Origin: Parcubacteria group bacterium
GTDB lineage: Bacteria > Patescibacteriota > Minisyncoccia > Phycocordibacterales > UBA2135
DNA length: 64,000 nucleotides
NCBI GenBank assembly: GCA_016180525.1
Contig: JACPBB010000001.1
Span: 11,320-75,319 of the forward strand
Direction of reading: 5' to 3'
Below the pieces are notes generated by a model that was not told where the DNA came from, did not search any database, and saw nothing but the letters and a program-made list of their open reading frames with translations. Both the position numbers and the translations under genes were made by a program. This document shows positions 5,689-54,731 of the stretch, piece after piece (within the stretch, counting starts at the first letter, position 1; each line of letters starts with the position of its first letter).

Positions 5689-7401
5689 TTATTTAGGAAT
5701 TTGCCTTGTATAGATTATCAAATCGCTCTTTTTAATAATATCTATAATTGCTTGACGCGAATATGTATCTTGTAAATCATTTTTAAGAGATATTAACCCG
5801 TTTTTCTCCAGATTTTTTTCTTTATGAGTAATGAGAAATGGAGTGTCTGTAACAATGCTCTTATTAAAACTCAAAAAGGCTGATGATGGTGCGGCGTAGA
5901 AAAGAAACAAATCATGAAAATCAACCTTTACCCCCAATAACGCAAGTGTTGATAAAAATTTGCTATATCCGGTAACGGCAAAGATAAGCTGGTCCACGTA
6001 TGCTGTTTTTGTGCGATAGAGCGTCAACAACCGTTCAATAAACAATAATTCATTTGTATTGAAATTTGTTTTTAAATCTTTTGCTCCATACAAAAAAGAA
6101 AGGGTGTTTAAAAAAATGACGACGTCATCTTGATACACAATCGGAAAAGCTGTTATTTTTTCCTGGAGTTCAGTAATTGTTTTATTGCCCAAAAACCAAT
6201 CATGTTCGGAGAGCAGGGACCGAATTTTAAGAATTGCCATTATCTTTACAAAATCAGTGCCATAATCCGGACAAGAATAGGAAGTTGGTATTGGTTGATA
6301 CAAAAGAGGAAAGGCCGCATTCGTTTTTTCCTGAAGAGCACGCTGAAGCGGCTTTTCTGTATTTTTTGAAATATGAAAATATAGGTCATTTAAAAGAACT
6401 ATTCTCGGGCTGAATTCACTACCGTATTTCTGCGGCATGACAGTGTAATATGCGGGGGTATCTTCAAGAGCACAGGCGCTGCTCCCGAGAACAATGACCG
6501 GCATGGATTCATACCATTGTTTCTCTGTCTCATTAGATACACTGAGTATTGAGTAGTAATTACGAATTAAAGACGCGTTGCTTTTGATAATTTCAGGAAT
6601 ACTATAAAAATTTTCTTGTTCAGATACTTCTTGTGAATTTAAAAAGGGCTGAAAAGAAGCTGATGCTAAAGAACATTTTTTTATATTCCCATTAAAACAC
6701 TTCATTCTATTGTTTCTTTTTTCGTCAATATCGTATGAAGCATTAATCAGAGTATTTAAAAATGTTACATATGTTTCATTTGAAATAGTTCCTGTTGGAA
6801 GAAAAAAATTTTTCTGGTCATGCTCAGCATATATGTGTTTCATTTTTTCAGCGTTTTTGCGATATATCTTAACCGTTCTCTCCAGTAACGCATCGTATGT
6901 TTTGATGTTTTCGACTGAAGGACGTTCCACTACGTCTCTGCGTGCCTTCTCAAGGTCGGCAATTGAATATAAAAAATCAGTCGGGTATAGATTTGACCTT
7001 AAAATTTTTTCCTCTCGTGGATAATAATACCCCGCAAAATTATCAAAAGATTGTTCCATACGAGCGATAGAGTTCCTCAATGTTTCTATGTCAGTTTCCG
7101 GAATAGCAAGAAACGGCTCTACGCGGGTCAAAAGTGAGTAATATCCTGCGCGAAGCGCCACAACTTCGCGCTTAAGAGTAGGAGGCGCCTCAACAAAAAC
7201 AATGCTGCCTTCAGAAATAGTATAGTGTTTCTCGTCTATAACAATTTCAGGAAGAATAAATTGGGCAAGCTCTTTTGAAAAAAACTTTTTTTCTTTTTCC
7301 AACTGAACTGTATTTTTAAATACGCTGACATAAAAAACCAATAATATAAAAAAACTTAGAATTATCGGTATACATACTCGGCGCTTTAACTGATACTTCA
7401 T
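5689..7401 (-). CDS. hypothetical membrane-anchored protein (570 aa)
   Basis: Long ORF with N-terminal TM helix. Last gene of a 4-gene minus-strand string (8738->5689). Confidence 0.45.
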   Translation of the reverse strand: MKYQLKRRVCIPIILSFFILLVFYVSVFKNTVQLEKEKKFFSKELAQFILPEIVIDEKHYTISEGSIVFVEAPPTLKREVVALRAGYYSLLTRVEPFLAIPETDIETLRNSIARMEQSFDNFAGYYYPREEKILRSNLYPTDFLYSIADLEKARRDVVERPSVENIKTYDALLERTVKIYRKNAEKMKHIYAEHDQKNFFLPTGTISNETYVTFLNTLINASYDIDEKRNNRMKCFNGNIKKCSLASASFQPFLNSQEVSEQENFYSIPEIIKSNASLIRNYYSILSVSNETEKQWYESMPVIVLGSSACALEDTPAYYTVMPQKYGSEFSPRIVLLNDLYFHISKNTEKPLQRALQEKTNAAFPLLYQPIPTSYSCPDYGTDFVKIMAILKIRSLLSEHDWFLGNKTITELQEKITAFPIVYQDDVVIFLNTLSFLYGAKDLKTNFNTNELLFIERLLTLYRTKTAYVDQLIFAVTGYSKFLSTLALLGVKVDFHDLFLFYAAPSSAFLSFNKSIVTDTPFLITHKEKNLEKNGLISLKNDLQDTYSRQAIIDIIKKSDLIIYTRQIPK

Positions 7402-8769: not shown

Positions 8770-10437
8770 ATGATTTCGTCTCAAAGGACAGTGGCTATTT
8801 TTATTTTTTTTATAGGCTCTTTTTTATTGCCGCTTTTTTTAATTCCCGGATACTCTTATCTATTCTCAGAAGCGGGTAAATTCGTACTTTTTTTTATTAC
8901 CATACATGTATCGGCGGGGTTTTTATTATATTCATGGTGGAAAAACAACTCTATTGACCTGCCCGCCCATCCTCTTTTTGCATCTCTATACTGTATCTTT
9001 CTTTTTATTTTTCTTTCATCGCTTTTTTCAAAGTCATATTATGTTTCATGGATATACTTTATAAATCATGAAAACACATTTTTCTTTTTTTATCTTTTGT
9101 TTCTCGTACTGTTTTTGTCTATATATTTTTTAAAATATAAGCAAGTAATTTTATATATATATGAGATTATTCTTTTCTCCTTCGTAACCCTCATCCCATT
9201 AAGTGGGGCAATGAATTTTTTTAATAAATTGGGCTTCATTAAAAATATAGAATCATTTCTTGACACAACAACTAATGTCATTATATTTTCAGGACTTGTT
9301 GCCGTTGTTTCATTGCTTTTATATATATTTTCAGAAAGTAAGATGATGCGCGTGTTTCCAATTATTACACTTGTCCTTTCATCACTGATTCTCTTTTGCG
9401 CATTTAAAGAAGAGGCAAAACTTGCCCTTTCTTTTCCCGTTGAAAATATGGCTGTCTTACAAGAAACAATAAAAGAATCTCCCCTGCGAGCACTTTTAGG
9501 AAGTGGGCCTGGAACTGTTCAATATCAATACGATCTATACGCACCTGAAGAAACTCCCACACGATCGTGGAGTAGCAGTCTTTTAATCCAATTTGGACTT
9601 TTAGGTGGATTTGCGTGGATTGTATTTTTTATTTTATTTTTGTATTTTGGCATATGGTCATTTTTGGAAAAAAATGCTTTGGCAATTGGAAATTTTATTG
9701 TTGCTCTATACTTGTGGATTTTTGCCCTTCTATATCCAGTAAATTTTACCCTCGTTGCCTTTACATTTTTATTTACAGGCATTTGTATCACACTCCAAAT
9801 CATTAAAGATTCTGAAAACAAGATCATTATTCCATTACAAAAAAGAAGCTCTCGCGTTGTGTTTGCATGTTTGGTGGGCATTGTACTTTTTACAAGCACG
9901 CTTGGTATTATAGTTTATACAAAAAAATCAATTTCATATGCTTTTTATCAGAATGCTCTTGTGATTGAAAGTAAAGAATTATTTTTAGACACCGTGAAGC
10001 GGGCATTGCAGATTTCAAAAGAGGACATATATTACAGAAAGCTCGCGGATTTTTATATTAAAAAAACAGAGATGGCACAGGGCCTTGTTCTCTTTACTGA
10101 ACAGAATAAAAAAATAGTTGAATATGGCGGAAACGCCGTTTCTTATGCCAATGAAGCCGTTCGTATAAATCCGAGCGATTACAGAAATTGGGGGACGCTC
10201 GGAAACATATACCTTGTATTTGAAAGGTTGGGCGTACGCGGAGGATACGAGCTTGGAAAAAATGCTTATTCAGAAGCACAAAAACTAAGTCCCAAAAATG
10301 AAATATTGCTCTTGGAGCGCGCGGAGTTGGCGTTTCTTGCCAAAGATATTCATTTTAGGGAACTATTGAAAGAATTACTGCAATATAATCCACATAACAT
10401 AGAGGCTCAAAAAAGATTGCGTGAGTGGGGATTGTAA
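8770..10437 (+). CDS. polytopic membrane protein, O-antigen ligase (Wzy_C)/O-oligosaccharyltransferase-like, with C-terminal TPR repeats
   Basis: >=10 hydrophobic helices. Central loop GSGPGTVQYQYDLYAPEE...RSWSSSLLIQFGLLGG resembles a Wzy_C loop. The C-terminal ~150 aa has TPR-like repeats. Confidence 0.4.
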   Translation: MISSQRTVAIFIFFIGSFLLPLFLIPGYSYLFSEAGKFVLFFITIHVSAGFLLYSWWKNNSIDLPAHPLFASLYCIFLFIFLSSLFSKSYYVSWIYFINHENTFFFFYLLFLVLFLSIYFLKYKQVILYIYEIILFSFVTLIPLSGAMNFFNKLGFIKNIESFLDTTTNVIIFSGLVAVVSLLLYIFSESKMMRVFPIITLVLSSLILFCAFKEEAKLALSFPVENMAVLQETIKESPLRALLGSGPGTVQYQYDLYAPEETPTRSWSSSLLIQFGLLGGFAWIVFFILFLYFGIWSFLEKNALAIGNFIVALYLWIFALLYPVNFTLVAFTFLFTGICITLQIIKDSENKIIIPLQKRSSRVVFACLVGIVLFTSTLGIIVYTKKSISYAFYQNALVIESKELFLDTVKRALQISKEDIYYRKLADFYIKKTEMAQGLVLFTEQNKKIVEYGGNAVSYANEAVRINPSDYRNWGTLGNIYLVFERLGVRGGYELGKNAYSEAQKLSPKNEILLLERAELAFLAKDIHFRELLKELLQYNPHNIEAQKRLREWGL

Positions 10438-39459: not shown

Positions 39460-39530
39460 GATACTAGGCTTTAGGCTTTAGGCTTTAGGAATTTCGTTTT
39501 TTCTAATGCCTAGCGCCTAGTGCCTCAATA
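39460..39530. repeat. intergenic 7-nt-periodic palindromic element immediately upstream of mraY, at the host-side edge of the GC-rich cassette
   Basis: ctaggctttaggctttaggctttagg - aatttcgttttttc - taatgcctagcgcctagtgcc. Confidence 0.6.
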
Positions 39531-39603
39531 ATATTATAACACTAAATAGACCTCGCTCAGAAGTTCGCCTCGTTAGAAATTCAGCCATTATTGTTTTTTA
39601 AAA

Positions 39604-39648
39604 TAAAAAAAGCCCCCCGAGCTACCGCGTAAGCAGTAGCATCGGGGG
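39604..39648 (-). terminator. intrinsic terminator downstream of the 566-aa GC-rich gene
   Basis: Minus-strand reading: cccccgatgctactgcttacgcggtagctcggggggc followed by ttttttt. Confidence 0.6.
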
Positions 39649-39717: not shown

Positions 39718-41418
39718 TTAGGCGTGGGCGTGGACCGTTGCGGCCTTCTTCGCCTTGGCCTTGCCCTTCTTGGCCTTCGGCTTGGGCGCGTCGGCGACCG
39801 CTTCGGTGGGAACTTCCTCGGGCTTCGAGGGAGTCTCCGGCGTGGCGGTCTTCTCGGCGGAGCGCCTGGCGATCTTGCCGAGCTCCCGAACGATCTTCTT
39901 GAACTCGTTCGGGTCCGTGAGAAGCGCCTTGTGCTTCTCCGGATACTCGACGGCCGTGATATCGCCGCCAGCTTCCGCGCGCGAGGCGAGGAAGTGGACC
40001 TGGAAGTGCTTCTTGCCCTTGCTGTCCCTCCAGGGGAACTTGATGAAGGAGTAGGACATGCCGGCCTTCGCGGGTTCGCCGAAGAAGTCCCCGAAGGAAA
40101 CGTTGGCCTTGCTGTTGTAGTTGTCCTTCTCCGTCTTGTACGCTTCATGTGCGTCTTCCTGCTTCTGGGCGCACTTGAACGCCCAGGAAAGCCGGCGGTA
40201 CAAGTCCTTCAAATTGCCGAACTCGTGCTGGTTGGGCACGAAGTAAGGCAACTCGAGATAGAACTTGTCCAGATCCTGGAGGGACTCCAGGGGAATCGCC
40301 CACGGGGCGATGCGGTGGCCGCGGTCGGAAACCGGCGAAGCGAGCGACGTCAAGGCCTCGGAGAGGGTCTGATAGACGACCTTTTCATAGCCTTCGCCGT
40401 CGTTCGGATACTCCATCGCCTTGCCGTCGACGACCTGAGGACCTTCGCGGGTAGGCGGTACAAGCGAGACGAAGATGCCCGTGTAGGGAACCTTGTTCCC
40501 GTCCTTGTCCTTCGACATGCGCGTGTCTTCAAACGCGCAGAGAAGGGCGCCGCCTTCGTGGGTCACGAATCGGACTTTCTTGTCCTGTGTGCCCCCCTTT
40601 TGCCGCGGGAACCAAACGTAGCAGGTTGCCGCTGGCACTTGCCGTGGCTTGCCGTCCTTGTCTCGACGTATGACGGTGGTCGTGAGATCTTTCTTGGTCA
40701 CCGAGCGGAACTCGGAGACCCACTTGACCGTCGCCTGGTTGCGAAACGCTGCGGACCCATCCTTGGTGTCGGCGCGGGAGACGAAGTATGCCCCGCGCGC
40801 CTTCTCCGAGAGGAGCATGAGAATGTTGAGGTCATAGACCTCGTTCTCGTACTCCTTGGTCGCGCCGATCCACGTGCCGTTGACCAAGGCGCCGATCGGG
40901 AGCTTCTCCTTGGAGGCGAAGATGATGTTTCGCTCCAAGCCGAACTGATTCATCCGTTCCGCCACGCTCGCAAGAGCACCATCCGGAACGATTTGGCCGA
41001 GCATCGCGGCGAGAAAATGAACTCCCGCCGTATGCATGAACCGGTCCTTCTGATCCCCAACGAAATTCTTGGCGTCGGGGAAAACGTCGACGTCGGCGTC
41101 ACAGAAGCGCTCGGCGGTCTTGACCATCTCCTCGGCGGAATGTCCCGCCTGAAGAAGCGCTGCCGCCTTCGTGGCGTACAGCGCGACGAATTCGGGAACC
41201 TGCGTCATGAGGGTGTTGAAAGCGCCCTCGTTTGCCGCTTGTTCCTCGGGCGTGGACTGGATCGTTGGCAGCGTGAAGCCGCCTGTCTTGGTGGTCTGCA
41301 TGGCTTTCGCCTCCTTGTGGTTGCCGTTTGGTTTTGACTCGTCAGGACGCCGAGTCACCTTGATGCCCTTTGCCTCCAGCGCTTGCTGGGTTTGGGGGTT
41401 GATGATCTCACCAGTCAT
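39718..41418 (-). CDS. hypothetical protein (566 aa) with C-terminal Lys/Ala/Pro-rich histone-H1-like tail; GC-rich, foreign composition
   Basis: ~60% GC, AAG/GCC codons. C-terminus PKPKAKKGKAKAKKAATVHAHA. Own -10-like TATAAT upstream and a hairpin + T-tract terminator downstream (39604..39648). Confidence 0.55.
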   Translation of the reverse strand: MTGEIINPQTQQALEAKGIKVTRRPDESKPNGNHKEAKAMQTTKTGGFTLPTIQSTPEEQAANEGAFNTLMTQVPEFVALYATKAAALLQAGHSAEEMVKTAERFCDADVDVFPDAKNFVGDQKDRFMHTAGVHFLAAMLGQIVPDGALASVAERMNQFGLERNIIFASKEKLPIGALVNGTWIGATKEYENEVYDLNILMLLSEKARGAYFVSRADTKDGSAAFRNQATVKWVSEFRSVTKKDLTTTVIRRDKDGKPRQVPAATCYVWFPRQKGGTQDKKVRFVTHEGGALLCAFEDTRMSKDKDGNKVPYTGIFVSLVPPTREGPQVVDGKAMEYPNDGEGYEKVVYQTLSEALTSLASPVSDRGHRIAPWAIPLESLQDLDKFYLELPYFVPNQHEFGNLKDLYRRLSWAFKCAQKQEDAHEAYKTEKDNYNSKANVSFGDFFGEPAKAGMSYSFIKFPWRDSKGKKHFQVHFLASRAEAGGDITAVEYPEKHKALLTDPNEFKKIVRELGKIARRSAEKTATPETPSKPEEVPTEAVADAPKPKAKKGKAKAKKAATVHAHA

Positions 41419-41509
41419 GGTGATTTCCTTTCTTTCTGTCTGTAGTTGTCAAGGTCTTAAAGGGTTTTTCCGTACAAAAAACGTACACCCTCTTCGTACT
41501 AATTGTTAT

Positions 41510-41563
41510 TATAGCAAAAAAGAAAGGCCCTGTCAAGTACCTTTCTAGGTTCCTGACAGGGCC
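41510..41563 (-). terminator. hairpin + T-tract after the 211-aa cassette gene, also containing a -10-like element for the 566-aa gene
   Basis: Minus-strand reading: ggccctgtcaggaacctagaaaggtacttgacagggcc tttctttttt gctataataacaa. Confidence 0.5.
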
Positions 41564-41588: not shown

Positions 41589-42224
41589 TTAATCATCCCA
41601 CCGTCGCCGGGGATCAGCTTCCAACTTAGACATGTGCTCGGGAAGAAAAGACAGGCTTCCGACTTCACGAACGGAGACAACGATATCTCCGTCCTCATCT
41701 TTTGCTTCAATGAACATTGCGCGATGCTCGTCACCCAACTGTATTTTCACAAAAACAGGATTGAAAATGCCATCTTTGCCAGGATAGGCAAGGGGCTGAA
41801 GCGTTTCTGTCGCCCATCCTTTCTTACTTGTCCTTACCATATCGTGCATTGAGAAGCCGAACGGAAATCGCTCTGTTGCTCCTTTTCGTCCGCAGATCAT
41901 GAAGTGACGCGGGTTCTTCCGCTGTAACAACAGCCAATGAAGCGGCTGTGCGAGAGCGCGGCGTGCCCCTGGAAAAGTGATATTCGTTTCCTCTCCGCTG
42001 AACACACGCCCCGGTATGTATGAATATGCAGGAAGCGCGACGTGCACAACCGGCTTACCCTTGTTGCTTCCATGCACTACTAAGTTTGTTTTGAGTGCTT
42101 CAAGTTCCTTGGTCCAATCTGAAAGTTCTGAAGAGAGCGGAAGGTCAAAATTAAGTTGAAAAGCGATTCTCAAAAACGGTGCATCCACCCCAATGGGGTA
42201 GAATTTCCGAGTTTCATTCGTCAT
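41589..42224 (-). CDS. hypothetical protein (211 aa), middle gene of the GC-rich cassette
   Basis: ORF with ~50% GC. Start overlaps the stop of the upstream nuclease gene (ATGA). Followed by a hairpin terminator at 41510..41563. Confidence 0.45.
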   Translation of the reverse strand: MTNETRKFYPIGVDAPFLRIAFQLNFDLPLSSELSDWTKELEALKTNLVVHGSNKGKPVVHVALPAYSYIPGRVFSGEETNITFPGARRALAQPLHWLLLQRKNPRHFMICGRKGATERFPFGFSMHDMVRTSKKGWATETLQPLAYPGKDGIFNPVFVKIQLGDEHRAMFIEAKDEDGDIVVSVREVGSLSFLPEHMSKLEADPRRRWDD

Positions 42225-43690
42225 ATTCCGACCTCCGTTCCATGCTTGGGATAGGCAAACCGTTCGCTGTCCTTGCCCGTAAGATATCGCGTTGCTTGCG
42301 AGAACTCGGCGTGAACAACAACGATTCGTTTGGGAGAGAGCATGTCCACCATGCGCTCAAACTCCCCCTCTTCCTGGTGAGAAGAGGTCGCGAGTCGGTG
42401 CACCTCGCACCGCACTTCATATGTGTCATGCCCGATTTCTATCGTGCATGGATCCGAACTAGCTCCAATACTAACCTCTTCAGCGGCACCATGACGATGC
42501 GCAAGTAAGGCTGTACCGGGCGAACAGGGGTCTTGCCAATTATTGATGACAAACGAGACGTCTGCGTGTTCCACGCCACGAGTAAGCCACCAATGAGCGG
42601 GGCTTCGGTCGGGAAACATGCCTCCGGCAGCAACAACAATCGCATGCCGGCTGCGAAGCACTTCTTCACGCTCCCGCTTGCCGTGGATAAACGTGAGGTT
42701 CTCAAGCAGATGCTGCTGCTCCGGTTCTAAACACTCTTTGAATATTTGAAGCGCCCTGTCTCCGCCATCAATATAGAGCTTTGCGACCTTTTCAAGGCCG
42801 GCATTGCGAATCCGTGCAATGTTGTCCGGCTCACGATGGATGGAAAGCGACGGTACCACCACAATCCCTCCACGGTTAAGTGTCCCGAGAAAACTGTCGC
42901 TCTCAAGGAAACCCTCAACGGGAGTTTCAAGCGGATCCGGAATTTTGCCCAAATTGGTACCATCCGGAATCAACATGTCTATTTTAATGTCAGGACGCAC
43001 TGCGCCCCTGATGAAAATCTGGTCTTTATCGGACGTGTCCCCTGTCGCAAGCACACGGGCCTCTCCGCCATTTGAAAGCTTCTGGCAGAAAAGAAACGAA
43101 GCCGCGCCAAGAATATGCCCTGCCGGAATTACAACCATTGTGAGGGTGGGATTCAACTCAATCATCTCACCAAAGTGTATAATTCGCACATACTCTTCAA
43201 GCGTATCAATATCGTGTTCATCAAAAAGCGGCTGATGACCTTTCCAGTCAGGATTCCGCTTCATTGAATTAACTGTCTGGGTTAACTGATGTTTCGTAAA
43301 TCGCCACGCGGGCCCCGTCATCCAAATACGCAACGAGTCTGGCGTAAGAGACGGGTTTGCCGCGAGCATTAACTTAAACTGAAGCGCAAGCGCTCCGATA
43401 TGGTCAAGATGAGCGTGGGTAATTACAATATCTCGTATCCCCATAAGTGCACCGATGTTTTTGTACAAAACATGGGGAAGTGCTTTCTTGTATGTCTCTG
43501 GTGCCCACGAAACGCGTGGCCGAGTTCCAGATTCAAGCTGAACTTCATATCCTAAAAAGTTCAGAACATATAAAGCTGCTCCAATTTCACGAACTGCGCC
43601 GTACCCAGTGAAAGAAATATCACGCGGGGAGGGAGCCCGAGTTCGGTTCATTTTGTACATCTTTCGTTTAGCTATTCTGTGTGGTGTCAT
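42221..43690 (-). CDS. metallo-beta-lactamase fold nuclease of the beta-CASP family (RNase J/CPSF73/SNM1-like)
   Basis: N-terminal GYGAVREIGAALYVLNFLGYEVQLESG. Motif 2 VITHAHLDHIGAL. Beta-CASP-like AGHILGAASF. C-terminal VVVHAE. First gene of the GC-rich cassette. Confidence 0.6.
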   Translation of the reverse strand: MTPHRIAKRKMYKMNRTRAPSPRDISFTGYGAVREIGAALYVLNFLGYEVQLESGTRPRVSWAPETYKKALPHVLYKNIGALMGIRDIVITHAHLDHIGALALQFKLMLAANPSLTPDSLRIWMTGPAWRFTKHQLTQTVNSMKRNPDWKGHQPLFDEHDIDTLEEYVRIIHFGEMIELNPTLTMVVIPAGHILGAASFLFCQKLSNGGEARVLATGDTSDKDQIFIRGAVRPDIKIDMLIPDGTNLGKIPDPLETPVEGFLESDSFLGTLNRGGIVVVPSLSIHREPDNIARIRNAGLEKVAKLYIDGGDRALQIFKECLEPEQQHLLENLTFIHGKREREEVLRSRHAIVVAAGGMFPDRSPAHWWLTRGVEHADVSFVINNWQDPCSPGTALLAHRHGAAEEVSIGASSDPCTIEIGHDTYEVRCEVHRLATSSHQEEGEFERMVDMLSPKRIVVVHAEFSQATRYLTGKDSERFAYPKHGTEVGI

Positions 43691-43866
43691 TTCGTCCTTC
43701 CTGCTGTTGTTTTAAGCCAGAATTGGCCTAATTTTTTTCAATGTTCCATTCAATGCTTATAATACTACATTACTATAAAAAAGTCAACCCCGATAATATT
43801 ATCAGCAAGGACGATCGTCAGGCTTCTAAAGAAGTCTCAACACCATCGAAGTGTCCATTTCACATT

Positions 43867-54219: not shown

Positions 54220-54292
54220 CAGAATTAAGTAGCCGTTTTTATTACTGAAAGAGTTATAAAATGGCGAGCATTGGATGCTCGCCATTTTTCTA

Positions 54293-54721
54293 TTATCGCT
54301 TAGACCACTGTGGAGCTTTACGAGCTTTCTTAAGCCCGAATTTACGGCGTTCTTTTGCCCGCGGGTCACGCTTGAGAAACCCGGCCTTTTTCAATCGATC
54401 ACGCCATTCTCCTTCAAATACAACAAGCGCCCGCGAAAGACCATGTCTCACAGCTTCCGCTTGAGACATTGCTCCGCCACCGCGCACCAGCACGGAAACA
54501 TTAAATTTGTTTGTTCCCTTAACCTTCGCGAGCGCTTCTCCTGCCGTAAGCTGAGTCCGTTTAATTTTAAAATAATCAGTAAAGGGTTTTTTATTCACAA
54601 CAATAGCCCCTTTTCCACTTTTGTTTTCTTCAATGCGAACTCGCGCGATAGAAGTTTTACGACGCCCCACCGCTTCAATATATCTTCCTTCGGGTATTTT
54701 TTTTATAACTGTTTCAGTCAT
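54293..54721 (-). CDS. rpsI: 30S ribosomal protein S9
   Basis: C-terminus RDPRAKERRKFGLKKARKAPQWSKR. GGG...QAEAV block. Confidence 0.9.
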   Translation of the reverse strand: MTETVIKKIPEGRYIEAVGRRKTSIARVRIEENKSGKGAIVVNKKPFTDYFKIKRTQLTAGEALAKVKGTNKFNVSVLVRGGGAMSQAEAVRHGLSRALVVFEGEWRDRLKKAGFLKRDPRAKERRKFGLKKARKAPQWSKR

Positions 54722-54731
54722 AGATAATGTT

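What the first reader, a model, noticed from the sequence alone, without database searches (positions are those of the whole stretch)
39718..41418. 566-aa unknown protein with a histone-H1/AlgP-like Lys-Ala-Pro C-terminal tail
The last ~60 residues (...AEKTATPETPSKPEEVPTEAVADAPKPKAKKGKAKAKKAATVHAHA) form a low-complexity K/A/P tail of the kind that binds DNA non-specifically. Examples are actinobacterial HupB, Ku and TopA tails, Chlamydia Hc1 and AlgP. The tail is encoded by the most GC-rich 200 nt of the window (tandem ggccttgg/cttcttggc units). The ~500-aa N-terminal body has no motif I can assign. It lacks the KxDG ligase motif, a Walker A motif and RtcB-type motifs. The tail composition and AAG/GCC codon usage suggest a high-GC donor, possibly an actinobacterium or its phage.
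Basis: partly seen in the sequence, partly recalled or inferred. Interest (0 to 1): 0.55.

Follow-up and report, generated by a model that had tools for sequence, protein, structure and literature searches.

The report
Orphan GC-rich gene beside CPSF-like RNase
A protein-coding gene with no known relatives sits next to an RNA-cutting enzyme in one group of tiny Parcubacteria/Paceibacterota (CPR) bacteria, and in every lineage it keeps a GC-rich, unusually folded coding sequence that looks selected for, not borrowed from a GC-rich donor.

Summary
The 566-aa ORF (39718-41418, minus strand) is real, and its last 25 residues are a Lys/Ala patch (17/25 K+A, net +7). That tail is short and evolutionarily labile: shorter in one lineage, cut off by a stop codon in another, absent in a third. 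The "high-GC donor or phage" reading is not supported. The gene belongs to a tiny orphan family (4 clusters plus 1 distant hit among 1.84 billion representatives), found only in Parcubacteria/Paceibacterota. It is always the third gene of a cassette (CPSF73/aCPSF1-like beta-CASP RNase, a 211-aa orphan, then this gene) directly upstream of mraY. Every family member keeps GC3 at 0.72-0.83 in hosts with GC3 of 0.33-0.5, although synonymous sites are long saturated. The GC enrichment starts and stops at the CDS boundaries. The mRNA folds more stably than strict synonymous shuffles (z -3.8 to -9.2, against +1.3 to -2.6 for host controls and 18 of 19 GC3-matched controls within -2.1 to +1.0). A/U runs are avoided. 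The gene has its own consensus promoter nested in the upstream terminator, and a strong terminator. No fold, Pfam, PHROG, PADLOC or PDB match exists. Best reading: a vertically inherited, probably RNA-associated partner of the RNase, whose mRNA is under selection for GC-rich structure. Protein function remains inferred.

The parts
39718..41418 (-). p566 CDS (566 aa): orphan protein, GC 0.61, GC3 0.81
   Evidence: coding-type divergence pos3>pos1>pos2; conserved in 5 lineages
39721..39795 (-). Codons for the 25-aa Lys/Ala-rich basic patch (ADAPKPKAKKGKAKAKKAATVHAHA), inside a disordered C-terminal tail (residues 525-566, 39721-39846)
   Evidence: (pLDDT<50 for 525-566); lineage-variable
39838..40236 (-). 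Most conserved part: long helix plus alpha-beta-beta-beta-alpha C-terminal domain (residues ~395-527), the only region shared with the distant homologue P0011. Invariant residues Y456, W463, K469, H471, R480, G485, E505
41508..41536 (-). Own promoter of p566: TTGACA-17 nt-TATAAT with TG extension, 12/12 consensus match, ~89 nt upstream of the ATG
   Evidence: conserved -35 and extended -10 in L001, L003, L006, L008, L010, L011
41516..41563 (-). Inverted repeat GGCCCTGTCA...TGACAGGGCC plus T-run: probable terminator of the RNase-p211 operon, whose 3' arm supplies the -35 hexamer of the p566 promoter
   Evidence: arms covary between lineages (GGCC/GGCC, AGTCC/GGACT, GACCC/GGGTC), loop length varies
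41419..41501 (-). Approximate 5' UTR with a 5'-proximal hairpin and an AAGGA ribosome-binding site. The transcription start is inferred from the -10 position
   Evidence: a hairpin is predicted in each lineage; the sequence is not conserved
39605..39648 (-). Intrinsic terminator after p566 (CCCCCGA...TCGGGGGG plus T7)
   Evidence: GC-hairpin plus T-run also follows the orthologues
41589..42224 (-). p211: 211-aa orphan protein, always between the RNase and p566; overlaps the RNase gene by 4 nt
42221..43690 (-). beta-CASP metallo-beta-lactamase ribonuclease (CPSF73 / aCPSF1-FttA / INTS11-like), HAHLDH motif intact
   Evidence: RMMBL 33.7 bits vs cutoff 21.6; 3af5 E=1.6e-14
39724..41337 (+). 537-aa antisense ORF: not a gene; codon-aligned shadow frame of a high-GC3 CDS
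   Evidence: broken by 2-4 stops in orthologues, as expected from TTA/CTA/TCA codon counts

Best explanation
p566 is a real, vertically inherited, lineage-restricted gene of a Parcubacteria/Paceibacterota subclade. It is the last gene of a conserved three-gene cassette (CPSF73/aCPSF1-like beta-CASP ribonuclease, a 211-aa orphan, p566) lying directly upstream of mraY.

Shown: p566 is framed as its own unit by a consensus sigma-70-type promoter (built into the terminator hairpin of the upstream operon) and a strong intrinsic terminator. The protein is soluble and multi-domain, with a helical N-domain, a beta-rich middle and a conserved alpha-beta3-alpha C-domain. Its N- and C-termini are disordered. 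Its Lys/Ala patch is an optional, lineage-variable appendage.

Shown: its extreme GC content is not a scar of foreign origin. It is a property of the coding sequence itself, held in every lineage against AT-biased genomes. GC3 is 0.72-0.83, the edges are sharp at the start and stop codons, local RNA folding exceeds synonymous expectation, and A/U runs are avoided.

Inferred: selection acts on the mRNA, most likely to make it compact and resistant to endoribonucleolytic decay. That decay could come from the AU-preferring decay machinery in general or from the co-encoded RNase. The result would be high or sustained output from one strongly promoted transcript.

Inferred, weaker: the protein acts with the RNase and p211 on RNA, as a scaffold or RNA-binding accessory, and the basic tail adds non-specific nucleic-acid affinity where it is present.
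For: Family and synteny: only 4 clusters plus 1 distant hit in 1.84e9 representatives, and 3 in 5.8e9 clusters. The RNase-21x-56x-mraY order is found in the window, L001, L003 and L006-L009. Flanking proteins are 49-83% identical and p566 38-47%.

Composition: GC3 is 0.81/0.81/0.72/0.77/0.74, and 0.83 in the distant P0011 gene, against host 0.33-0.5. p566 is the only outlier of 59 ORFs, +10.3 SD. DnaK and ribosomal proteins are at 0.32-0.39, so this is not ordinary expression-linked bias. Flanking intergenic GC is 0.41-0.49, against 0.56-0.69 in the first and last 150 nt of the CDS, in 5 loci.

Structure: shuffles preserving protein, codon usage and dinucleotides give z -5.5, -6.6, -3.75, -9.15 and -7.4. 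12 host controls give +1.3 to -2.55. 18 of 19 GC3-matched controls give -2.05 to +1.0. Block-restricted shuffles stay negative, -1.95 to -5.75. The tool's dinucleotide shuffle gives z -6.2. The excess is larger on the sense strand in 5 of 5 genes.

A/U-run avoidance: z -3.4, -3.45, -3.5, -2.1, -1.35, against a control mean of -0.44.

Expression framing: a 12/12 consensus promoter, a conserved terminator-promoter module and a terminator.

RNA context: the neighbour matches aCPSF1, FttA, CPSF73 and INTS11. A CSD-like protein lies next to the distant homologue.

Coding: omega is 0.15-0.31 and the AF2 model reaches pLDDT 67 with 5 sequences.
Against: There is no direct evidence on expression level, mRNA half-life, RNA binding or a physical complex. 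The function of p566 and p211 rests on gene neighbourhood alone.

The structure excess is diffuse, made of many 10-12-bp hairpins with no conserved discrete element. It is nearly as strong on the antisense strand in 3 of 5 genes, so a DNA-level cause is not excluded. About half of the effect disappears with block-restricted shuffles, and one unrelated GC-rich control gene also reached z = -8.

Reduced synonymous divergence is seen against L013 but not against L010. UA depletion is within the range of ordinary GC-rich genes. The RNase gene's 1000-nt control segment also scores z -3.2 in the dinucleotide test.

G/C-ending codons are rare in these hosts, so the same features could throttle translation instead of boosting output.
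Confidence: 0.4

Rival explanations
1. One reading: a recently acquired gene from a high-GC donor (an actinobacterium or its phage) encoding a nucleoid-associated protein that binds DNA non-specifically through a histone-H1/AlgP-like K/A/P tail.
For: Strong compositional contrast with the host. A real K/A-rich basic patch. The cassette's GC12 is also above host values. scpA/scpB lie nearby in three lineages.
Against: No homologue in any high-GC organism, phage, plasmid or viral structure set. The same syntenic slot is occupied in deeply diverged genomes, each keeping GC3 at 0.72-0.83. There is no tRNA, integrase or att-like repeat at the borders. The tail is short and is lost or truncated in 2 of 4 lineages. 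The partner is an RNase of the CPSF type.
Confidence: 0.1
2. A regional mutational process is responsible, not selection. The locus would be a recombination hotspot where GC-biased gene conversion drives up GC3 and speeds protein evolution.
For: p566 is the fastest-evolving protein of the locus and is enriched in GC-rich codons at positions 1 and 2. L006 and L008 are identical from the RNase gene to gltX but highly diverged in scpB and S11, so there is a recombination breakpoint at the cassette edge. The RNase and p211 genes are mildly GC3-elevated, +3.2 to +3.4 SD.
Against: GC enrichment stops abruptly at the start and stop codons, while the 130-335-nt flanks are host-like in 5 loci. p211, 170 nt away, has GC3 0.48. 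Conversion does not predict folding beyond composition-matched shuffles or A/U-run avoidance. dS is not elevated, and is lower against L013.
Confidence: 0.1
3. Translation throttling. The gene is built almost wholly from host-rare G/C-ending codons in a folded mRNA, so the protein is kept scarce or made only under particular tRNA or physiological states, as for a toxic or regulatory factor, despite a strong promoter.
For: AAG 51 vs AAA 4, TTC 26 vs TTT 3, GGC 27 vs GGA 2, the reverse of host usage. Highly expressed host genes (DnaK, ribosomal proteins) do not use this bias. The CDS is structured.
Against: A 12/12 consensus promoter, conserved across lineages, is an odd partner for a gene meant to be scarce. 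The first windows of the CDS carry less structure excess in 4 of 5 genes, as expected if initiation is kept open. No tRNA data are available for these genomes (none in the window).
Confidence: 0.15
4. The cassette is an anti-phage defence or abortive-infection system (nuclease plus two accessory proteins), and p566 evolves fast because of an arms race.
For: A nuclease with two fast-evolving orphan partners. Weak similarity of the RNase to the type VII CRISPR Cas14 beta-CASP model and to an anti-Pycsar MBL model.
Against: No PADLOC hit for any of the three proteins beyond noise. Position is fixed beside core cell-wall genes, with inheritance broadly following the flanking genes, instead of the patchy, island-hopping distribution of defence systems. 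omega is 0.15-0.31, so p566 is under purifying selection. No CRISPR array or other defence genes lie nearby.
Confidence: 0.1
5. Dual-function transcript. The abundant, GC-rich, folded p566 RNA itself acts as a decoy, sponge or scaffold for the RNase or other RNA-binding proteins, in addition to being translated.
For: Strong promoter, pervasive structure and A/U-run avoidance, all conserved to the most distant family member. Adjacency to an RNase.
Against: No discrete conserved RNA element. Rfam finds nothing. The structure is diffuse and not positionally conserved. The protein is clearly under purifying selection.
Confidence: 0.08

Closest known systems
Basic K/A/P-rich C-terminal tails of bacterial nucleoid proteins (mycobacterial HupB, Chlamydia Hc1, Pseudomonas AlgP, actinobacterial TopA/Ku tails); comparison from established knowledge
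   Same: A disordered C-terminal appendage enriched in Lys and Ala with a few Pro, and net positive charge (+7 over 25 aa).
   Different: It is much shorter, a single ~25-aa patch against tens to hundreds of residues of repeated motifs. An acidic linker precedes it. It is not conserved among orthologues. There is no Pfam match, and it is attached to an unrelated 520-aa body.
CPSF73 / aCPSF1 (FttA) / INTS11 / Thermus TTHA0252 beta-CASP ribonucleases and their non-catalytic partners (CPSF100-symplekin, INTS9-INTS4)
   Same: The adjacent 489-aa protein aligns over MBL, beta-CASP and RMMBL regions to these enzymes (E 1.6e-14 to 1e-9) and keeps HxHxDH. Like them, it is encoded with dedicated accessory proteins.
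   Different: It has no KH domains. The partners p211 and p566 show no similarity to any known beta-CASP partner. A three-gene bacterial cassette of this kind was not found in the paper search I ran.
Selection for mRNA secondary structure and stability in coding regions (for example the dicodon-shuffle analyses of bacterial genes by Katz and Burge 2003; stabilising 5' hairpins such as the ompA leader); from established knowledge
   Same: Native CDS folds better than synonymous shuffles. There is a 5'-proximal hairpin and a strong 3' terminator.
   Different: The magnitude is larger and confined to one gene. A single gene is held at roughly twice the host GC3 across order-level divergence, with sharp CDS edges. 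I know of no described case like this.
Horizontally acquired genomic islands with atypical GC
   Same: A ~4-kb block of raised GC in a low-GC genome.
   Different: It is syntenic and vertically inherited in diverged lineages. It has no mobility genes, tRNA or att repeats and no donor homologues. The anomaly is concentrated in one CDS and has not ameliorated.

Membership tests
Histone-H1 / Hc1 / AlgP / HupB-type basic DNA-binding tails | Long low-complexity region of repeated K/A/P motifs (tens of residues or more) | tested here: not met
   Only the last 25 aa are K/A-rich (8 K, 9 A, 2 P). The preceding 22 aa are acidic. TRF finds only 2 copies of a 21-nt unit.
Histone-H1 / Hc1 / AlgP / HupB-type basic DNA-binding tails | Tail conserved among orthologues | tested here: not met
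   Shorter patch in L006/P0010; removed by a stop codon in L001 (two assemblies); absent in L003.
Histone-H1 / Hc1 / AlgP / HupB-type basic DNA-binding tails | Profile match to a known family | tested here: not met
   0 Pfam families at E<=1; NCBIfam only a noise-level DpdB hit.
Histone-H1 / Hc1 / AlgP / HupB-type basic DNA-binding tails | Non-specific DNA binding | not testable with these tools
   Needs EMSA with full-length and tail-less protein.
Recently acquired genomic island | Absent from the same locus in related genomes; mobility genes, tRNA or direct repeats at the borders; homologues in a plausible donor | tested here: not met
   Present at the same position in 4 diverged lineages. 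No tRNA. No convincing flanking repeats. Neighbours are housekeeping genes. No donor homologues.
Recently acquired genomic island | Atypical base composition | tested here: met
   GC 0.61 and GC3 0.81 against a window mean GC3 of 0.33. The feature is also kept in all orthologues, which argues against recency.
beta-CASP metallo-beta-lactamase ribonucleases (the neighbour gene, not p566) | MBL HxHxDH motif, beta-CASP insert, RMMBL C-terminal motif | tested here: met
   HAHLDH present. RMMBL 33.7 bits vs cutoff 21.6 and Lactamase_B 24 bits vs 22.7. End-to-end alignments to aCPSF1 and CPSF73. Scores are far below the equivalog cutoffs, so it is a member of the superfamily and not of aCPSF1, RNase J or Cas14 proper.
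DpdB / DGQHR (ParB-like) proteins | Profile match above threshold, shared by family members | tested here: not met
   11 bits vs a cutoff of 300, E 0.04-0.13. Only 1 of 5 family members shows it.
Known anti-phage defence systems | PADLOC model match for any cassette protein | tested here: not met
   No significant hit for the three proteins.
dsRBD-like RNA-binding domain (lead for the C-terminal domain) | alpha-beta-beta-beta-alpha topology with a basic beta1-beta2 loop and a basic N-terminus of helix 2 | tested here: inconclusive
   The AF2 topology (H442-446, E453-459, E474-480, E487-491, H494-523) and the conserved GKKH and KHK fit the layout. Domain-only profiles find no dsrm or any other family in Pfam or PDB, and Foldseek lists no dsRBD. 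The resemblance is recalled from memory.

The most novel reading that the evidence does not exclude
A single protein-coding gene has been held at about twice its genome's GC3, with excess base-pairing and A/U-run avoidance, across order-level divergence, by selection on its mRNA. It would be a naturally 'hardened' transcript, evolved beside and possibly because of a CPSF-like beta-CASP RNase that is a major decay enzyme in these reduced CPR bacteria. Together with the two orphan proteins this would define a previously undescribed RNA-metabolism module.
Probability: 0.3. Interest if true: 0.75.

Novelty: categorically new. Interest (0 to 1): 0.62.

Why it matters
If the reading holds, this locus offers three things.

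1. A clean natural experiment on selection at synonymous sites. One gene resists its genome's AT pressure for a very long time, with its neighbours serving as matched internal controls.
2. A handle on how mRNA decay and protection work in CPR/Patescibacteria. These bacteria are uncultivated, and their RNase repertoire is poorly understood.
3. Two new protein families that are obligate genomic partners of a bacterial CPSF73-like RNase. Relatives of that enzyme terminate transcription in archaea and process mRNA 3' ends in eukaryotes.

It also carries a practical warning for genome scans. A sharp GC island is not always foreign DNA.

Tried and rejected
Homology searches that found nothing:
- Pfam, PHROGs, PADLOC and NCBIfam for p566 and p211.
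- PDB sequence profiles for the whole protein, the C-domain and p211.
- The word-indexed search with a 6-sequence alignment added nothing, probably because the low-complexity tail consumed the candidate list.
- The search for related loci failed on A2 (no conserved stretch) and found nothing with A1 in the GTDB representatives or IMG/VR.
- My own degenerate pattern for the VHFLxxRxxxGG[ED][IV] motif gave 26 loci, of which only L013 and L021 are true members.

Structure:
- The first AF2 model (3 sequences) was too poor to use (pLDDT 47).
- The second model (pLDDT 67) gave no significant Foldseek hit in PDB or BFVD. Recurrent SSB-OB, intein-Hint and NTF2-like hits have E 0.05-1 and TM<0.25 and are treated as noise.

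Ideas rejected:
- The antisense 537-aa ORF as a real gene.
- The DpdB/ParB-like lead.
- p211 related to p566 or to the CSD protein of L011.
- An Rfam family in the region: only sub-threshold miRNA noise.
- A conserved 5'-UTR structure by RNAalifold: the UTRs are unalignable.
- UA depletion as a special feature: it is within the range of GC-rich controls.
- Reduced dS as firm evidence: it holds for one pair only.
- Expression-linked codon bias: DnaK and ribosomal proteins have normal GC3.
- Two literature searches found nothing pertinent.
Full report
**Observation.** The ORF exists exactly as described: 39718-41418, minus strand, 566 aa.
- It ends in ...ADAPKPKAKKGKAKAKKAATVHAHA. The last 25 residues hold 8 K, 9 A and 2 P, with net charge +7. 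The K+A content (17 of 25) has P = 1.5e-7 against the body composition, or 8e-5 after correcting for all windows.
- The basic patch is about 25 residues, not about 60. The 22 residues before it are acidic, net -3.
- The tail-coding 200 nt tie for the most GC-rich stretch of the window (0.67). The whole gene is anomalous, however, with 200-nt values of 0.585-0.645 elsewhere in the CDS.
- The tandem units amount to a 21-nt repeat x2.0 and a 9-nt repeat x2.1.
- No Walker A, KxDG or other simple catalytic motif is present, and there is no TM segment or signal peptide.

**Host and neighbourhood.**
- The window is a low-GC (0.396) Parcubacteria/Paceibacterota (CPR) genome. The protein is annotated as hypothetical in a Parcubacteria-group MAG, on a 344-kb contig.
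- Three co-oriented genes form a GC-raised block: a 489-aa beta-CASP metallo-beta-lactamase nuclease (42221-43690), a 211-aa protein overlapping it by 4 nt (41589-42224), and p566.
- The flanks are core genes. Upstream are scpB and an S11 D-Ala-D-Ala carboxypeptidase. Downstream are mraY, ftsW, murG and gltX.
- The nuclease has an intact HAHLDH motif and an RMMBL domain above the Pfam cutoff. It aligns end to end with aCPSF1/FttA, CPSF73, INTS11 and Thermus TTHA0252. It is therefore a CPSF-type ribonuclease lacking KH domains.

**How rare the family is.**
- The word-indexed search of 5.8 billion clusters found the protein itself and two relatives at 41-45% identity.
- An exhaustive HMMER profile search of 1.84 billion representatives found four clusters, plus one marginal 437-aa protein (P0011, E = 5e-5) that matches only the C-terminal domain.
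- A custom degenerate-DNA scan of the metagenome and GTDB collections added only two more loci, both from an already known lineage.
- Nothing turned up in IMG/VR, phage records, plasmids or viral structure models.
- p211 is equally orphan, with 6 clusters and no Pfam or PDB match.

**Vertical inheritance.**
- In the window, L001 and the L006-L009 lineage, the order is scpA-scpB-S11-RNase-21x-56x-mraY-ftsW-murG-gltX-M23. In L003 the upstream neighbour differs (prfA), but RNase-206-550-mraY is kept.
- Flanking proteins are 49-83% identical between lineages, the RNase 57-68%, p211 49-56% and p566 38-47%. The lineages are therefore deeply separated, and p566 is the fastest-evolving member.
- The window-L001 pair is the closest for p566, as it is for the flanking genes.
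- No tRNA, integrase or convincing att-like repeat marks the borders.

**The tail is labile.** The L006/P0010 lineage carries only ...APKAKTKGKKKP.... L003 has no basic patch. In L001 a TAA stop, identical in an independent assembly, is followed in frame by SVKALKEAKTAAVAE, which is a truncated remnant. The tail is predicted disordered. It cannot be the defining functional element.

**The composition anomaly is the conserved feature.**
- GC3 of p566 is 0.81 in the window, 0.81 in L001, 0.72 in L003, 0.77 in L006, 0.74 in L010 and 0.83 in the distant P0011 gene. Flanking host genes are at 0.33-0.51.
- Within the window it is the only real outlier of 59 ORFs, +10.3 SD. DnaK and ribosomal-protein genes sit at 0.32-0.39, so this is not the usual bias of highly expressed genes.
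- Third positions between lineages differ at 0.54-0.63, close to the 0.65-0.69 expected for unrelated sequences of that composition. An unameliorated relic is therefore excluded.
- The enrichment starts and stops at the CDS borders. Flanking intergenic DNA is 0.41-0.49 GC, while the first and last 150 nt of the CDS are 0.56-0.69, in all five loci. This argues against a regional mutational cause such as biased gene conversion.
- The 537-aa opposite-strand ORF is the codon-aligned shadow frame and carries 2-4 stops in orthologues.

**mRNA folding.**
- I used shuffles that preserve the protein, codon usage and every dinucleotide count. Summed local folding energy of the native CDS is lower by z = -5.5 (window), -6.6, -3.75, -9.15 and -7.4 (P0011 gene).
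- Twelve host control genes give +1.3 to -2.55.
- Of 19 GC3-matched genes from high-GC organisms, 18 give -2.05 to +1.0, with one unexplained outlier at -8.0.
- The tool's own dinucleotide shuffle gives z = -6.2 for the last 1000 nt of p566 and -3.2 for a 1000-nt control segment of the RNase gene.
- Restricting shuffles to 80-codon blocks roughly halves the effect, but it stays negative in all five genes, -1.95 to -5.75.
- The excess is diffuse: many 10-12-bp hairpins and no dominant or positionally conserved element. It is strongest in the 3' third and weakest at the start in 4 of 5 genes.
- The energy excess is larger on the sense strand in 5 of 5 genes, but clearly so in only two. RNA-level selection is therefore favoured but not proven.
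- The few A/T-ending codons are placed so that A/U runs are avoided, z = -3.4, -3.45, -3.5, -2.1 and -1.35 against a control mean of -0.44.
- UA depletion is not distinctive.
- Synonymous divergence is lower than in mraY and ftsW against L013, but not against L010. I count that only as suggestive.
- omega of 0.15-0.31 and the pos3>pos1>pos2 divergence pattern confirm a constrained but fast-evolving protein.

**Expression signals.**
- p566 has a 12/12 consensus promoter, TTGACA-17-TATAAT with a TG extension, at 41536-41508, about 89 nt upstream of the ATG.
- A GC hairpin plus T7 terminator follows the stop codon.
- In every lineage, including P0011's contig, the -35 hexamer lies in the 3' arm of an inverted repeat followed by a T-run. 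The arm sequences covary (GGCC/GGCC, AGTCC/GGACT, GACCC/GGGTC) and the loop length varies. I read this as the terminator of the RNase-p211 operon fused to the p566 promoter.

**Protein.**
- With five sequences AF2 reaches pLDDT 67 and pTM 0.46.
- The model has a disordered N-terminus with one short conserved helix, a helical domain (57-162), a mixed region, a beta-rich middle with long hairpins (247-350), a 40-residue helix (397-437) and a confident alpha-beta3-alpha C-domain (442-523).
- The C-domain carries the residues invariant even in P0011: Y456, W463, K469, H471, R480, G485 and E505.
- The C-domain layout recalls a dsRNA-binding domain, but domain-only profiles give no support. It remains a lead only.
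- The gene next to P0011 encodes a protein with a near-threshold cold-shock domain, 24.1 bits against a cutoff of 27.

**Interpretation.**
- Shown: a real, orphan, vertically inherited gene in a conserved cassette with a CPSF-like RNase; its own strong promoter and terminator; a labile basic tail; and a GC3, folding and A/U-run signature conserved across the family and confined to the CDS.
- Inferred: selection on the mRNA, most plausibly for compactness and resistance to endoribonucleolytic decay.
- Inferred, weaker: a nucleic-acid-associated role, probably on RNA, with the RNase and p211.
- Rivals: recent transfer plus a DNA-binding tail, biased gene conversion, rare-codon throttling, a defence system and a dual-function RNA. 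Each is weighed with its refuting test in the Rival explanations section.
- I rate the locus as lying outside known kinds, because neither orphan protein nor the single-gene compositional regime matches anything I could find. The functional claim rests on context only.

Noticed in passing
L006 vs L008 (S11|RNase gene boundary; L006 ~6378-6547): Two assemblies from different studies are identical at all 4-fold sites from p211 to gltX (RNase gene 6 of 230 differences) but differ at 45-49% of 4-fold sites in scpB and S11. This is a recombination breakpoint, or an assembly chimera, exactly at the upstream edge of the cassette.
   Followed up: partly
window 41516-41563 (-) and the equivalent sites in L001, L003, L006, L008, L010, L011: A terminator hairpin whose 3' arm contains the -35 TTGACA of the next gene's promoter. 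The arms covary between lineages. This compact terminator-promoter fusion is conserved even at the distant homologue's locus.
   Followed up: partly
window ~41440-41447 (-); L006 ~8793-8800; L010 ~1737-1744: The octamer CTTGACAA recurs in the p566 5' UTR 20-35 nt before the start codon in three lineages, echoing the -35 region. Its purpose is unknown; a second promoter or a binding site are possibilities.
   Followed up: no
L001 11654-11701 and L002 3598-3645: The stop codon of the L001 orthologue is followed in frame by 15 codons encoding a K/A-rich remnant (SVKALKEAKTAAVAE), identical in two independent assemblies. This is either recent tail truncation or possible stop-codon readthrough.
   Followed up: partly
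L011 1701-2510 (+): The gene downstream of the distant homologue P0011 encodes a 269-aa protein with a near-threshold C-terminal cold-shock (CSD) domain (24.1 bits vs cutoff 27) and GC3 0.60. It is unrelated to p211.
   Followed up: partly
window 39465-39489: The heptamer TAGGCTT is repeated 3.6 times, perfectly, in the mraY-proximal part of the p566-mraY intergenic region.
   Followed up: no
window 39523-39537 and 43788-43802: A 15-nt near-repeat (CCTCAATAATATTAT / CCCCGATAATATTAT) lies in both intergenic regions bordering the cassette. It coincides with -10-like promoter sequence on the minus strand, so it is more likely promoters than att sites.
   Followed up: partly
window 41589-43690 (-) and orthologues: The RNase and p211 genes are themselves mildly but consistently GC3-elevated (0.42-0.53 against host 0.33-0.45; +3.2 to +3.4 SD in the window), with GC12 around 0.50 in all lineages. 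This is a weaker version of the p566 anomaly.
   Followed up: partly
L025 5107-6370 (+), Nonomuraea endophytica: One of the GC3-matched control ORFs, unrelated to this finding, shows a folding excess as strong as p566 (z = -8.0 in the dicodon shuffle). It is unexplained.
   Followed up: no
window 54275-54727 (+): A 150-aa ORF with GC3 0.56 and GC12 0.39 is the second-highest GC3 in the window. It is probably a spurious ORF in a gap or opposite a real gene.
   Followed up: no
L004, L005 (Logan assemblies SRR12113385, SRR12113433): In two independent read-set assemblies the exact p566 gene sits alone on ~2-kb contigs that end just outside the CDS. The assembly breaks at the composition edges.
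   Followed up: no
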